Assembly: GCA_013265495.1 (NCBI GenBank)
Contig: MU058213.1
Coordinates: 5,973,149 to 6,037,148, forward strand
Direction of reading: 5' to 3'
Source: Vicugna vicugna
Taxonomy: Eukaryota
Length of the DNA stretch: 64,000 nt
Positions 4,641 to 44,752 of the stretch are shown here, in pieces; the first letter of the stretch is position 1, and each line of letters opens with the position of its first letter. Made by a program: the position numbers and the translations under genes. A model generated the notes under the pieces. The model was given only the letters and a program-made list of their open reading frames with translations, searched no databases and had not been told where the DNA came from.

Positions 4641-6195
4641 AAATTGGGAGGAAACCCATACATAAATCTAATGTTTTTTGTAATAGAGGAAAAAATAAAA
4701 CAGAGATAATATATTTCTTTACCTTTAACATAGAGGATATTTAATTTTGTCATTTAATCTATGATTCTTGTTTTGTGTTTTGCTTTTTTTTTTTGAATTA
4801 TCTAAATAATTCACCTTTAAGTGAATCTTTGTTTACTACAATACATTTTTCCTCTTTTCATCCTGTAGTGAAATATATTTAGGCGAAGAAACGTGATGCA
4901 TTTGTTTCTCTATCAAGAATGATGCTAAAAAAATAATGACAACTTATATTTTATGTATAAAGCCTCTTGCCAGTTATTGAGTACTTCTACATTCATTATG
5001 TTATTTATTTTTACAAAAGTTCATCATTAAACACGTATCTATTGAATATTTACTACCTGCCAGGCATGTTAAGGTCTAGGAAGAAAATGAATACCTTATC
5101 TATATTGTTCACCATTGTGTGGGCTCCTAACAGAGTGTAAATGTTCAATAAGTACTGATTGCCTGAAGAAAACCAGACTGGCCTGCCCTTATGGGGTTTA
5201 CACTCTTGACAGCAAACTAAGACATTAGTCAATCTTAAAAATACGTATAAAATTGCAACTGTAGCTAGGGGAATGAAAGATAAAGACACAGTGCTCTGGG
5301 AACCTATAATAGGAAAATTTAACTCTTATAGGGATAGATTAAATGATCCTTATTTTATGAAAGAGAAATCTGAGATTCAATAATGTCAGTAAGTAGTCCA
5401 AGAGCAAAGTGTTAATAAAGGGAAGAAGATCCAGGATGATTCTAAATCTATTGCTTTTTTTTCTTTTTTTTTTTACTGTAACACCTTGTTTTCCATCAAA
5501 GTTTATTTGCGTTCCCCAAAAGAGTTTTATTCCTTCCTCCTAATATTAAGCCCCAATTGATACTGCTCTCTCTATTTTTTTTTAGATACCTCAGTCTTTG
5601 CTTACCATATTCCTGCCCAGCATCATTGTTCCTTACCCCTACTTTCAAATTAGGCCTTCAAACCTTTTGTGTCTTGAAATATCTTTGCTTGACCCCCCTA
5701 TTTACTATTGGCAACAGTTGCATTATTGTACCCTTCTCCTAATGGAAAGTGTATAGCTTCTCGTATTGACAGAGGAGGTATAATAGTTAAATGTCCCGTC
5801 TGAAGATAACAAAAATGCTTGACCAAATATATTATTCAAATCTTCTTGTCCTTACCGATTTCCTATGTGCTTGTTATATTACTTACTGTGAGAAGTGTGT
5901 TAAAAATTTCCCACCAAGAATGTCGATTTGTTGATTTTTTTGTAGAACTGTCAAATGTTACTTCATGTATTTTAAGGCTTTGTTATTAGGGGCATAAAAA
6001 AGTGTAATCGTTACATCATTACTAAATGGGCCTTTTATCTTTAGTTGGATTTTTTCCACCCTTAAATACTATACCAGCTTTTCGTTGGCTAGTGCTTACA
6101 AAGTACGTCTTTTTCCATACTTTTGCCTTCAGCCTTTTTTGTGTGCTCCTTAAATGTACTTTTCTAACTAGCGTACTGTTGTTGTTGTTGTATAT

Positions 6196-14526: not shown

Positions 14527-15312
14527 CTTTCTTTGTTCCTTATTTTAGGGGAAAAAGCATTAGTCTTTCACTATTAAGTATGATATTAGCTGTAGGTTTT
14601 TTATAGGTGGCTTTTTTTCTATTGGGGAAATTTTTTTTCAATTTTTCATTTGCTGTGAGTTATCATGAGTGGCCATTAATTTTGTCAAATGATTTTTTCT
14701 GAGTCATTTGAGATAATCATATAGTTTTTCTTTTTTAGGGTGAGAATATGATGAATTACGTTGACTGATTTTTAATTATTACATCAACCACGAATTCCTG
14801 TGATTAAACACACTTGGTCATGATACATTGTCCATTTTTATGTATCATCAGACTTGATTTACTAAAATTTTGTTAAGGATTTTTGCATCTGTGTTCATGC
14901 TCTCAAATTTATTCATCTAAATTTTCTTTTAATATCTTTGGTTTTGGTTTAGGGTGATGCTGGTCCCAAAGAATGAGTTGAGATATATTCACTCTTCTGT
15001 TTTCTATAAGAGTTTATGTAAAACTGGGATTATTTCTTCCTTAAATATTTTGTAGAATTCACCAATGGAGCCATCTGGACCTCAGATGTTCTTTAGAGAA
15101 GTTCTCAAACAATGAGTTCAATGTATGAATTTAAAGTGATATCCTCTCTCTCACTCTTGATGTTGACAATTTGTTTCTTCTCTCTTTTATTAATCCATGA
15201 ATGGTTTGGTTACTGGTTTATCTGTGTTACTGATATTCTCATAGAACTGGTTTTAGGTTTCACTGATTTTTTTCTATTTTTTTTGTTTTCTAGTTCATTG
15301 ACTTCTGCTCTT
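14527..15312 (-). mobile_element. Old L1M ORF2 fragment (left half of the element split by the RBFA retrocopy)
   Basis: Antisense L1 ORF2 motifs (aaaagcattagtctttcactattaagtatgatattagctgtagg...tagaattcaccaatggagccatctggacct), ending ttctagttcattgacttctgctctt. Confidence 0.85.
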
Positions 15313-16654
15313 ATTTTTTCTACTTGAAATGTCAAAGAATTTTTCCCTTCCAAAGTAGAGTTCATTTGTGTAAATATAATACCACAGTACATAGACCTCA
15401 ACATTGTACAGACTTTTATGGAACTGCTGGTCCGTATTAGTCTAACTTTCCAAAAGAAGCTTATCAGCAGAGCTGATGCCTCACAGATACACTTCTTCAT
15501 ACTGTGTAACAAATTAACTTGATTCTTTTTTATCACCTCCTCTCTGTGCCTCCAGTTTCTCTTCTTCTAGTAGTTTGCATTCGTATTCCAGTGTGTGCTC
15601 CTCCAAAAATGCATCAGCATAATCTGGATCATTTACACTCATTCTACCCAACAGATACTTCTTACAGAGGGTGGGGGGTGGGGAGGGGCACGGGGAACGT
15701 AATCATCCGTGAGGGGGTTTGCTTTCTTCTTTTCCTTTTTCATTTGCTTTGTTAACTCAACCAATTATTTCTGCTCTTATTTTGGTCAAACTAGGCTTAA
15801 ACTTCCAAGCATTTCTGTCTTGCTTTTATATTCAGTTATTTGCTTGCCGAGTGTCTTGTGATTGATTCCACACAGACTTGAGTGCACAGCCAATTCCATG
15901 ACATCAGATCATGATGGACTGTCATAGGTTCCCTTAAGTCACTTTGTATAAAGTCTTCTTTTTCATCCGAGGTCCACAAAGGGCAACTGCCAGTAACTGA
16001 TCCATCTCAGCTAGAGCTCCATTTTGTCTCAAACAGACACTATAGGCAGCACATTCCTCCGAGTCTGCTGAAACATCAAATGGTGCCCCACAAGTAAAGC
16101 ACTTTTCTGTAAGATGGTTTCTGTGTGGTCACTCTGTTCAGCAAAAAGAGTTGTCTTCCAGTACACACAGCAGGCTGAAAGGTCTGCAGTCAGAGAGACC
16201 TTGAAAACTCCACATTCAGGTCACAGATCCCTTGGCTCACTTCAGAGGTGTCCAGCAAATCTGTCAGTGCTTTACAGAAAAGGTCACCCAGGGCCTTGAG
16301 TGCACATGGTCCTCCCTCATGGGTTTCTTTGAAGTATTCTTCTTTAGGAGTTCCAACCTGGATGATTGGAAGTCAAGAGAAATCCTAAGGAAAGACCTTC
16401 ATACTAAACATTTTTCTAACCAGTACTCCTTAGAATTGTCAAAAATCATGAAAAACAAGGAAAATTTGAGAAACTGCCATATTCAAGAGGAGTCTAAAGA
16501 GACACAAACGAAATATTTTTGAGGAAAATTTCTTTAAACAAGTTCTCATTGCCACAAGAGATGAAGGAGTCATGGAGGCCTCCAGCCCAACTGCTGAGTA
16601 GCCCCATGGCCCTGTGGGAGCCCCACGGCCCTCCAGCTGGTGCCCAAATGCCTT
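15313..16654 (-). pseudogene. RBFA: Processed pseudogene of RBFA (mitochondrial ribosome-binding factor A)
   Basis: Minus-strand translation across frameshifts gives IWAPAGGPWGSH..., [169 protein letters not shown]. These blocks are collinear with recalled human RBFA (MWAAAGGLW...[47 protein letters not shown]...SSLCGIDHEALNKQIMEYK). Intronless; start codon changed to ATT (16649-16647); stop TAA at 15516-15514; many stops and frameshifts. Confidence 0.92.
16416..16514 (+). mobile_element. ~100-nt L1MC/MD 3' UTR fragment inside the RBFA retrocopy (antisense to it)
   Basis: ccagtactccttagaattgtcaaaaatcatgaaaaacaaggaaaatttgagaaactgcc; its reverse complement aligns with the L1MC copy at 44027-44068. 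Confidence 0.8.
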
Positions 16655-16682
16655 GATGATGATGACGATGATGATGATGATG
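16655..16682. repeat. (GAT)n microsatellite at the retrocopy 5' junction
   Basis: gatgatgatgacgatgatgatgatgatg read directly from the sequence. Confidence 0.95.
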
Positions 16683-16687
16683 CTCTT

Positions 16688-19430
16688 CCTGATTGATTTA
16701 GATTTAATTCACTCTTCTAATTTCTTAAGATAGAAGCTTAGGTCATTGATATTAAAGCTGTTTTCTATCCTAATATAAATATTTGAAGCTATGAATTTCC
16801 TTGAAAACAGAGCTTTGATGGCATCCCATAAATTTTGAGTAATTGTGGTTCTATTTTCATTCATTTCATAACATTCAAAAGTTTCTTTTGTGAACTTCCT
16901 TGATCCATTGGTTATTTATGTGTTGTGTTTAATTTTAATTCTTTGGGAAGATTTTCCAAATATCTTTCTGCTATTGAATTCTAGTTCACTTCCTTTAAGT
17001 TGAGAAATACTTTGTATGAATTCAATCCTTCCGTATTTAGGACTTGTTTTATGTCACAGAATATAACCGGTAAAACTTGGTAAATGTACCATGCACACTC
17101 GAGAAGAATGTGTATTATGCTGTTCTTGGATGTAGTTCAGATTTTTGATACCGTTCTTCAGGTTTTCCATATCTTTACTGATTTTTTAAATCTTATTTGT
17201 TTATCAATTATCAACAGCAAAGTGTTAAAATATCTAGCACTAATTGTTAATTTGTGCATTTCTCATATAAGTTTAATCAGTTTTTTATTAATGTACTTTG
17301 TTTTATTAGATGCATACAGATTTAGAATTTTTATAGTCTGTTAATCAATGTGAAACTTTCATCATTATGAAATAACTTTATCTATGATAACATTTGTTTA
17401 TCTGAAATCTACTTTACCTAATATAGCCATTGTAACTTATTAGAGTTAGCATAATATATCTTCTTCCATCCTTTTACCTTTATCGTATCTGTGTCTTTTA
17501 GAGTTCTGGTAGGCAGCATATAATTGTTTTGCTTTTTTTAATCCATTCTGACAATCTCTGCCTTTTAAATGGATTATTTATACCATATACATTTAAATTT
17601 ATTGTGATTATTATATGCTTGAGTTTAAAGCCACCATCTTGTTCTCTATGTATCTCTTCTATTTGTCCCATCTGTCCTTTGTTCTTTTTTCTCTTTTTTC
17701 TGACTTCTTTGCATTAATTGAGAATTTTTTATGCTTCAAGTATACCTTCTTTATTGGCCTAGTAGCTATTCTTTTTATTTTTGTTTTTAGTGGTTTATAT
17801 AGCGTTTACAGTCCAAATATTTAACTTAGTCTCCTTCAAATAATATTGAAACACTGCGTATACAGAATAAGTATTATAGAACGGCATACTTCTACTTTTT
17901 TCTCTCCCATCCTTTGTCATGCAATTACCTTCACTATATAACAGACTCTAAAATATATTGTTATAACTATTGCTTTAGACAGTAAATTATCTTTAAAATA
18001 ATAAAAAAAGTCTTTTATATTAATCTTTATGTTTACTGTATATGGTGTTCTTTATCTATTTTGTGTATCCAAATTTCTATCTGTATCATTTTTCTTTTAC
18101 CTGAAGAATTACTTGAACATTTCTTATAGTTCCAGCTTAAAGATGGTAAATTATCTCAGATTTTATAAGTCTGCAAAAGTCTTTATTTTCCTAAGTTTTT
18201 GAGAGATATTTTTGCTAAGTATAGAATTCTTGGTTAGCATTTCCTTCCCCTTTAATGCCTTTAAGATACCACCCTACTCACATTCTTGCATTTTTTCTAA
18301 TGAGATGTGGCTGTCTTGCACTTTTTCTTCTGTATGTCTTATCTTTTTCTCTGCTTGCTTTCAAGATTTAATCATTGGTTTTTTTTAACATTTTTTATTG
18401 AGTTATAGTCATTTTACAATGTTGTGTCAAATTCCAGTGTAAAGCACAATTTTTCAATTATACATGAACAAACATATATTCACTGTCACATTTTTTAACA
18501 TTGTTTTTGTTTTTAAGCAGTTTGATTATTATATGCTCTAGTGTTGTTTTGCTTGAGAGTCCATTAAACTTGTTCGATCAGTAAGTCATATTCTTCACCA
18601 TACTTTGAATATATCCTGGCATTTCTTCAACTTCGTCCACTCCAGATCTCCTCAGGGACTCCAGATATACATATATTAGGCTACTTGGTATTTTCTCACA
18701 GCTCGTTGATGCTCTGTTCATTTTTTCCCGTTCTTTTTTCCCCTATGCTTCATTTTAAGTAGGTTCTATTGTTTTTTCTTCAAGTTTACTGGTAGTCCAA
18801 TCTAATGTATTTTATATCTCAGATACTGTATTTTTCATCTGTGGAAATTTGATGTGGGTCTTTCTTACCTTTTATTTTTTATTATGCTCGTGTTTCCTCT
18901 ACCTTCTTAATCAAATGGTGTATTTTTTAAATAGTTATTTTAATTTCCTTGTCTACCAATTATATCATCTGTGTAATTTCTGCATTTCTGTTGATTTCTA
19001 TTCTATTTCTTTCCACTTTGGCTAATGGAAAACACAAGTATTAACAGCCCTATGTGAGTTCCAGAGATGTCTTGTGCACTCTCTGTGATGGTTCCTTTCC
19101 TATCCTTAGTAGTTTTCTCGTATGCATGTGTAGATCAGTACTTGGTCAAAGACTCAAGGAGCCCCTCTGCATTTCTTGAGTTTCCCCTCTCTGTGTGTGC
19201 AGCCTCCTCTTCTCTGGTTGTGTGCTCTGTAAATTTTAGCTGCCTGGGCCTCCCTGGATCTCTGTCCCCTCAACTTAATAAAACTACTGGGATCTGTCTG
19301 GGTTCTACCTCTCAATATCAGGCACTTGATGGGTTCACCTTCTTAGTTTCCCTTCTCTCAGGATCACTGACTTGTCCTGCTTGTTGTCCAGTATCTGGAA
19401 AACTGTCTCAGATATCTGGTCTGATTTCCT
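16688..19430 (-). mobile_element. Old L1M (right half of the split element: 5' part of ORF2, ORF1 and 5' region)
   Basis: Resumes with ...ttctaatttcttaagatagaagcttaggtcattgat..., the expected continuation of the L1 broken at 15312; contains a short younger L1 3' end at about 18380-18500. Confidence 0.8.
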
Positions 19431-43814: not shown

Positions 43815-44752
43815 GCTTTTATTTTACAGTAGTTTTTCATTTACAGAAAAGTTGCAAAGATAGTACACAAAATTCCCATAAACTCCTCCCCCCGTTTCCC
43901 CTATTGTTAACATCTTACTGTACATCTATTGCAACTAAGAAATCAACTTTGGTATATTACTATTAACTAAACTCCAGGTATTATTTGATTGTAGTCTCCT
44001 GTGGTCTCACATATTTTGGCCTTTGCTTGTTTTTCATGACTTTAATAGTTTTGAAGAGTGCTCATCAGGTGTTTTATAGAATGCCCTCAGCTTGGGTTTG
44101 CCTAATGTTTTTCTCATTGGTTTGACCGGGGTTGTGGGTTTCCAGAAGAATACCACAGAAGTGAAGTGCCCTTGTTAGCAACTGACTATAATTGATGATT
44201 ATTAACCTCGATCACCTGGCCAGGGTAGTGTCTGCCAGGTCTCACCACTATAAAGTTACTCTCCTTTCCCATTAGTTTTTTATTTGGAAGCAAGTCGCTA
44301 ATGGTGGACAAATTGTTAAGCTCCACCTCCTGGAAGGGCTGTATCTATGATAATCATTTGGAATTATTTTATTTAATTTTTTTAGAATTCTTCTGTAAGG
44401 AAGATTCATCTTTTTTTCCTCTCACATGTTTATTAATTCAATCGTTTGCATCAGAATGGACTAAATTGTTATTTATTTCATACTTTGGGTTAGAATTCAA
44501 TACTGTGTTATTTTGTTGGAACAGTTGTTCTAGCTTTGGCCATTGGGAGCTCTTTCAGGTTGGCTCCAGTGTCCCTTTGATATACCTCTATCCTTTTGGT
44601 TTTTTGTGTTCTTGGCTTTCTGGCGCTGTAAGATGCTCTAGGTTCATCTTCTGTTTTTCTTGCCATAGTCCTAGTATCAGCCATTACTCCAAGGAGCCCT
44701 GGTTCCTTTTGTTGGAGAATAGTATTAAAAATCAGAATCTGGATGCTAGGTC
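43815..44752 (-). mobile_element. L1MC-type 3' UTR fragment
   Basis: tttacagaaaagttgcaaagatagtacac...cagccattactccaaggagccctggttccttttgttggagaatagtatt. Confidence 0.85.

What the first reader, a model, noticed from the sequence alone, without database searches (positions are those of the whole stretch)
16416..16514. RBFA retrocopy appears to preserve a TE-exonised (possibly poison) cassette exon
Seen: on the retrocopy sense strand, ...TCC TCA AAA (KFSSK) is followed by ~100 nt of antisense L1MC/MD 3' UTR sequence and then AAA AAT GTT TAG TAT GAA (cf. KKVWYE). The fragment has no poly(A) tail or TSD. It ends at GAGTACTGGTTAG, exactly where the homologous L1 copy in this window (44027-44074, ...gagtgctcatcag|gtgttt) continues with GT, a potential splice donor. 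Recalled, not verified: the RBFA exon 1/2 boundary falls near K53, and L1MC/MD families are older than most retrocopies. Inference: the fragment did not jump into the pseudogene but was spliced into the parental mRNA as an L1-derived cassette exon. It contains TAG and TGA triplets and could be an NMD-type exon, so the retrocopy would record an old alternative isoform. The 5' boundary is ambiguous by a few bases.
Basis: partly seen in the sequence, partly recalled or inferred. Interest (0 to 1): 0.75.

Follow-up and report, generated by a model that had tools for sequence, protein, structure and literature searches.

The report
Pseudogene fossilises a lost LINE-1 exon
An old dead copy of the mitochondrial ribosome-assembly gene RBFA carries, exactly between exons 1 and 2, a ~100-base piece of a repeat (likely LINE-1) that also sits in the parent gene's first intron, so it likely records an accidental, frame-breaking exon spliced in early placental mammals whose donor site is now mutated in this camel-family genome.

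Summary
Observation confirmed; the core interpretation holds. The window carries an old RBFA processed pseudogene (minus strand, ~16650-15330) inside an ancient L1. The parent gene lies on G000:C5072. Its 2,516-nt intron 1 holds the only good match to the insert in 50 kb, on the same strand (80%). Insert and intron copy share 6 derived substitutions against about 1.8 expected (P about 0.005). The 3' join falls on the repeat family's AG|GT and the start of exon 2. The 5' join lies within 5 nt of the exon 1 donor but fits the nearest AG acceptor poorly (simulated P 0.04-0.08). Every candidate exon (94, 113, 125 nt) shifts the frame and stops early. 'Poison exon' as a function is unsupported: the parent's donor now reads CT, and the segment has decayed like unselected copies. 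No RNA reads were obtained. The retrocopy likely predates the split of bats, carnivores and ungulates. Verdict: a fossil of a cryptic L1 exon, a new case of a known phenomenon.

The parts
15330..16650 (-). RBFA processed pseudogene (exons 1-7 joined, many stops and frameshifts; 3' end approximate)
   Evidence: 127 mismatches in 484 aligned bases over exons 2-6
16515..16649 (-). exon-1-like part; decayed start codon at 16649; keeps the extra codon before K-N-L-L that sampled Laurasiatheria lack
16416..16514 (-). ~94-98 nt repeat-derived insert (antisense L1M-type 3' UTR by recall), homologous to G000:C5072:6253868-6253952 in parental intron 1; 5' edge uncertain within 16511-16517
16374..16415 (-). 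exon-2-like part, joined at the family's donor position (plus or minus 1 nt, AG/G ambiguity)
15931..16373 (-). exons 3-6-like part, introns cleanly absent
15550..15930 (-). exon-7-like coding part
16653..16683 (-). (CAT)n microsatellite at the retrocopy's 5' edge
16690..17602 (-). host ancient L1, ORF2 residues 38-353, upstream of the retrocopy
14528..15320 (-). host ancient L1 continues (ORF2 about 386-686); paralogous L1 copies run from one flank almost directly into the other
44021..44750 (+). another copy of the same repeat family, GT at 44069-44070; a paralogue, not the source

Best explanation
The insert is a piece of the repeat in RBFA intron 1 that was likely spliced into an ancestral RBFA mRNA as a cryptic cassette exon, then likely frozen in the genome when L1 reverse-transcribed that mRNA. 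Shown: homology and shared derived changes with the intron copy, position at the exon 1/2 junction, 3' end at the family's AG|GT, clean loss of the other introns, and a CT in place of the donor in today's parent. Inferred: (1) an L1M-type element landed antisense in intron 1 carrying ready-made AG acceptors and a GT donor; (2) the spliceosome sometimes joined exon 1 to it and it to exon 2, giving a 94-nt exon (or 113/125 nt with a later deletion in the retrocopy); (3) that isoform had a frameshift and a stop 17-32 nt into the exon, so it was probably non-functional and partly degraded; (4) one such germline mRNA was retroposed before bats, carnivores and ungulates split; (5) the donor G later mutated on the camelid line, ending this exon there.
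For: Only one good match to the insert in 50 kb around the parent, in intron 1, same strand, E 7e-15; the other matches of the insert have E 0.079 or worse. A given 2,516-nt intron would hold such a copy on that strand by chance with P about 0.001-0.005 (from 35 exact motif hits). Six shared derived bases against 1.7-1.8 expected, P 0.004-0.005; 1 of 325 unselected copy pairs reach 6. 3' join: 84% of the fit lies on the donor position or 1 nt before it, with exon 2 intact or short by the ambiguous G. GT follows that position in 19 of 26 unselected copies. All best 5' joins lie within 1-6 nt of the exon 1 end. Age: extra codon kept, ancestral state at 4 of 5 cetartiodactyl-derived sites, and placement outside a 90%-supported Laurasiatheria clade. 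Neutral decay: 13 changes versus a mean of 13.9.
Against: The canonical TTTAG acceptor fits 4.2-5.4 log-likelihood units worse than a join 7-8 nt upstream that also trims 4-5 nt off exon 1 (7.3 units against today's parent). Simulation gives that gap in 4-8% of true canonical cases. That acceptor has only 8 of 15 pyrimidines. All 6 shared changes are common transitions, and 2 of 38 copies chosen for similarity also share 6 with the insert. By overall identity the intron copy (80%) is not the top hit among 39 copies (77-86%). No RNA junction was seen. No second RBFA retrocopy exists to replicate it. No eulipotyphlan or pangolin protein was named in the dating set.
Confidence: 0.74

Rival explanations
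1. The exon was a regulated poison exon (splicing coupled to nonsense-mediated decay) tuning RBFA levels in early placentals, and may survive in lineages that kept the GT.
For: All three candidate exons shift the frame and stop early, far upstream of the last junction. The only RBFA retrocopy in the genome contains it, which is likelier if inclusion was common. PMC3176834 (passages) notes that 30% of conserved alternative exons are less conserved than average constitutive exons.
Against: Donor lost in this genome. Divergence equals that of unselected copies, whereas the poison exons described in PMC3176834 for RBM39 are 98-100% identical across species. A rare isoform is occasionally captured among thousands of retrocopies (inference).
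Confidence: 0.1
2. The template was a partly spliced RNA: the L1 donor was spliced to exon 2 as an alternative 5' splice site, and the 1.2 kb between exon 1 and the repeat was skipped by a microhomology jump of the reverse transcriptase or deleted later.
For: The best-fitting 5' join has no AG before it and shows a short A-C microhomology between the end of exon 1 and the repeat.
Against: The jump would have to land within 5 nt of the exon 1 donor by chance, about 1 in 100. The poor canonical fit is only borderline unusual. A longer cassette from the strong upstream acceptor (13 of 15 pyrimidines) plus a 25-35 nt deletion gives the same join.
Confidence: 0.12
3. A repeat fragment inserted independently into the pseudogene after it formed and landed at the exon junction by chance.
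For: The retrocopy is old enough that the family may still have been active. The family has thousands of copies.
Against: No poly(A) or duplication; the piece is an internal segment about 250 nt from the element's tail. It would need a chance hit on the junction, a chance end at the GT, a chance same-strand copy in that intron and 6 shared alleles.
Confidence: 0.02

Closest known systems
Retrocopies as records of past splicing (Pan and Lin 2020, PMC7692494: abstract and section 8 read; Shemesh et al. 2006, PMC1360558: not held, title seen in a reference list, content recalled)
   Same: A retrocopy preserves an exon or splice site that current annotation lacks; PMC7692494 describes sites since mutated in the parent.
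   Different: Here the exon is transposon-derived and frame-breaking in a protein-coding gene, rests on one retrocopy, and its donor is lost in this genome.
Antisense L1 exonisation and LINE-derived cryptic exons (Attig et al. 2018, PMC6108849: passages read; PMC2176070: search listing only)
   Same: Antisense L1 carries splice sites, and older L1s near exons are the commoner source of exons.
   Different: Those are seen in living transcriptomes; this one is inferred from a genomic fossil, in a short 2.5-kb intron.
Transient SINE exonisation (discussion in Baertsch et al. 2008, PMC2584115: passages read)
   Same: Most exonisations are transient and lost in some lineages.
   Different: Loss is usually inferred from splice-site phylogeny; here the spliced product itself seems preserved.
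Conserved poison exons, e.g. RBM39 and SR proteins (PMC3176834: passages read)
   Same: Early stop codon in an internal cassette, NMD-eligible by position.
   Different: No conservation and no intact donor here; no regulation shown.

Membership tests
Processed pseudogene | Introns precisely absent | tested here: met
   Exons 2-7 joined at the parental boundaries
Processed pseudogene | Disabled reading frame | tested here: met
   Stops and frameshifts
Processed pseudogene | Poly(A) tail and target-site duplication | tested here: inconclusive
   No clear tail; a candidate duplication matches 8 of 12 bases; flanks are contiguous L1 in paralogues
TE-derived cassette exon | Source repeat lies in the matching intron, same orientation | tested here: met
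   shared alleles
TE-derived cassette exon | 3' end at a GT donor joined to the next exon | tested here: met
   Join at the family's AG|GT; the parent now has CT, so the ancestral GT is inferred
TE-derived cassette exon | 5' end after an AG acceptor, joined to an intact upstream exon | tested here: inconclusive
   Within 5 nt of the exon 1 end, but the canonical model fits worse
TE-derived cassette exon | Junction reads in RNA | not tested
   Runs were listed but no reads were laid
L1M (L1MC/MD) 3' UTR | Match to a named L1 consensus; link to ORF2 and a poly(A) end | tested here: inconclusive
   No repeat library available; name recalled. A/T-rich start in most of 30 copies; ORF2 in the expected orientation in 4 of 20, opposite in 3 of 20; collinearity only about 850 nt
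Poison exon (AS-NMD) | Premature stop more than 50 nt upstream of the last junction | tested here: met
   Stop at codon 49-54 in all reconstructed cassettes; start-proximal stops may partly escape NMD (recalled)
Poison exon (AS-NMD) | Conserved exon and splice sites | tested here: not met
   Donor CT; 13 of 86 changed versus a mean of 13.9; one genome only
Poison exon (AS-NMD) | Regulated inclusion, stabilised by NMD inhibition | not testable with these tools
   Needs knockdown RNA-seq

The most novel reading that the evidence does not exclude
Early placental mammals controlled the mitoribosome assembly factor RBFA through an L1-born poison exon common enough to be retroposed; camelids lost it, it may still work in lineages that kept the GT, and a roughly 90-million-year-old pseudogene is its direct record.
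Probability: 0.1. Interest if true: 0.65.

Novelty: new member of a known kind. Interest (0 to 1): 0.42.

Why it matters
It is a rare direct record of a splicing event that the parent gene can no longer make at that site. Transposon exonisation is thought to be mostly transient, but lost exons are normally invisible. This case shows that old retrocopies can date and bound such exons, and it suggests a simple genome-wide screen: repeat fragments at exon junctions of pseudogenes that trace to the matching parental intron. It does not reveal a new mechanism, and function is unsupported.

Tried and rejected
RNA check: 24 runs listed, none laid; inclusion in living camelids stays open, and run shares are no evidence. 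Protein isoforms: none of 118 mammalian RBFA proteins shows a repeat-like insert between exons 1 and 2; odd N-termini in P0002, P0054, P0074 and P0088 did not resemble it by eye, and a frameshifting exon would not appear in protein sets anyway. Dating by the host L1: its best relatives are only 67-74% identical, too old to exclude contemporary activity. Overall identity as an orthology test: uninformative. The first shared-allele test used copies picked for similarity (3 near-duplicate rows dropped) and was redone on 30 motif-picked copies, 26 kept. Whole intron retained then two deletions: rejected, since both ends would have to hit splice positions. Literature: no RBFA exon or retrocopy report among the listings, and no matching case in the listings. 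The 5 readable supplements of PMC6108849 lack RBFA, but two large files could not be read and two PDFs were stubs, so its exon tables were probably not searched. Earlier scan notes: nothing relevant. A Pfam call failed on stops and PF08333 was not held.

Full report
Observation. The minus strand of 16650-15330 is a decayed RBFA processed pseudogene. A DNA search of the own genome found the parent on G000:C5072, and a protein search found only the parent and this one retrocopy. The parent has seven exons with GT-AG introns; its joined CDS differs from the protein named Vicugna pacos RBFA at 2 residues, so the genome is likely a camelid. Exon 1 ends AA|GT within a lysine codon and intron 1 is 2,516 nt. 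In the retrocopy about 98 nt of repeat sequence lie between the exon-1-like and exon-2-like parts, while introns 2-6 are cleanly gone.

Source of the insert. Against 50 kb around the parent, the insert has one good match, 6253868-6253952, inside intron 1 and on the same strand, 80% over 87 columns. It is part of a ~1.1-kb repeat in that intron. The family has roughly 1,000-8,000 copies by a motif-based estimate, so a given intron of this size would hold one on that strand with P about 0.001-0.005. Identity alone does not single out the intron copy, so I counted shared derived bases. Over an 86-nt core the parent copy has 13 and the insert 15 differences from the family majority; 6 are shared. 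Among 26 of 30 copies chosen only by an upstream motif, the most any shares with the insert is 4; the expectation is 1.7-1.8 and P(6 or more) is 0.004-0.005; 1 of 325 pairs reaches 6. Against this: all six are transitions, and 2 of 38 copies selected for similarity also share 6.

Junctions. At the 3' end, 84% of the fit falls on the family's donor position or one base before it, the two being confounded by the G that starts exon 2. GT follows that position in 19 of 26 unselected copies and in the window's own copy at 44069. In today's parent it reads CT; a GT 5 nt upstream remains, with 6 of 9 matches to the recalled donor consensus, so other rare use is not excluded. The 5' end is less clean. 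The nearest AG acceptor gives a 94-nt exon and nearly the right length, but a join 7-8 nt upstream that trims 4-5 nt from exon 1 fits better by 4.2-5.4 log units. Simulating the canonical model gives such a gap in 4-8% of 300 replicates per setting. Either the weak acceptor was used and the join then decayed, or a stronger upstream acceptor (13 of 15 pyrimidines) was used and a 25-35 nt deletion followed, or the join is a reverse-transcriptase jump. All best joins lie within 6 nt of the exon 1 donor, which favours splicing.

Coding effect. Reconstructed cassettes of 94, 113 and 125 nt all shift the frame and stop 17-32 nt into the exon, at codon 49-54. That is NMD-eligible by position, though start-proximal stops may partly escape (recalled). 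Function is not supported: the donor is lost and the segment has decayed at the rate of unselected copies. None of 118 mammalian proteins includes it, which is expected for a frameshift and says little. No RNA reads were examined.

Age. Of 118 proteins, 90 covered the exon 1 motif: 24 from lemurs, colugo, Glires, Afrotheria and Xenarthra (one unnamed) have an extra residue before K-N-L-L, 51 (46 named bats, carnivores and ungulates, 5 unnamed) lack it, and 15 simians have a different deletion. The retrocopy has the extra codon. It shows the ancestral state at 4 of 5 cetartiodactyl-derived sites, and a protein tree of 35 mammals places it outside a 90%-supported Laurasiatheria clade, with its exact position unresolved. 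It therefore likely formed more than about 80 million years ago (date recalled), and orthologues may exist in other placentals. It interrupts an even older L1 ORF2 whose paralogues run across the site. Because it is so old, family age alone cannot exclude an independent insertion; the orthology and junction evidence do.

Repeat identity. The L1MC/MD name is recalled. Support here is limited to a tail-like A/T-rich start and ORF2 hits in the expected orientation in 4 of 20 copies versus 3 of 20 opposite.

Comparison. Retrocopies recording past splice sites are known: PMC7692494 (abstract, section 8) and Shemesh 2006 (title only; content recalled). Old antisense L1s are a known source of exons (PMC6108849, passages), and most exonisations are transient (PMC2584115, passages). 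Described poison exons can be extremely conserved, though not all conserved alternative exons are (PMC3176834, passages). I found no report of this RBFA case in the listings; unreadable supplements of PMC6108849 may bear on the human orthologue.

Verdict. Real and well supported as a fossil of an L1-derived cryptic exon (0.74); partly spliced template 0.12; regulated poison exon 0.10; independent insertion 0.02. New member of a known kind; interest 0.42.

Noticed in passing
window 15769-15783 and 15303-15317: A 15-nt stretch inside the exon-7-like part is identical to host L1 sequence at the retrocopy's 3' junction; about 0.002 such pairs expected from base composition. The retrocopy seems about four codons longer than the human protein there. 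Possibly a small insertion templated from the target site.
   Followed up: partly
L007 about 4890-5030 (G000:C5072, ~1.5 kb upstream of RBFA): The last exon of a glyoxylate/hydroxypyruvate-reductase-like gene lies just upstream; protein P0002 (Camelus bactrianus model) joins that gene to RBFA exon 2, either read-through splicing or an annotation fusion.
   Followed up: no
window 16600-16632: A 14-nt direct repeat spaced 19 nt in the exon-1-like part; the retrocopy's exon 1 is about 9 codons shorter than most non-artiodactyl forms.
   Followed up: partly
G000:C5072:6252634-6252642: The RBFA exon 1 donor matches only 5 of 9 positions of the recalled consensus.
   Followed up: no
G000 genome-wide; L109: Dozens of young L1 copies with an open 1,293-aa ORF2 among 150 scored RVT_1 hits, suggesting recent L1 activity in this lineage.
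   Followed up: no
P0007, P0010, P0012, P0074: Some bat RBFA models carry extra or replaced sequence around exon 2, hinting at loose splicing in this part of the gene.
   Followed up: no
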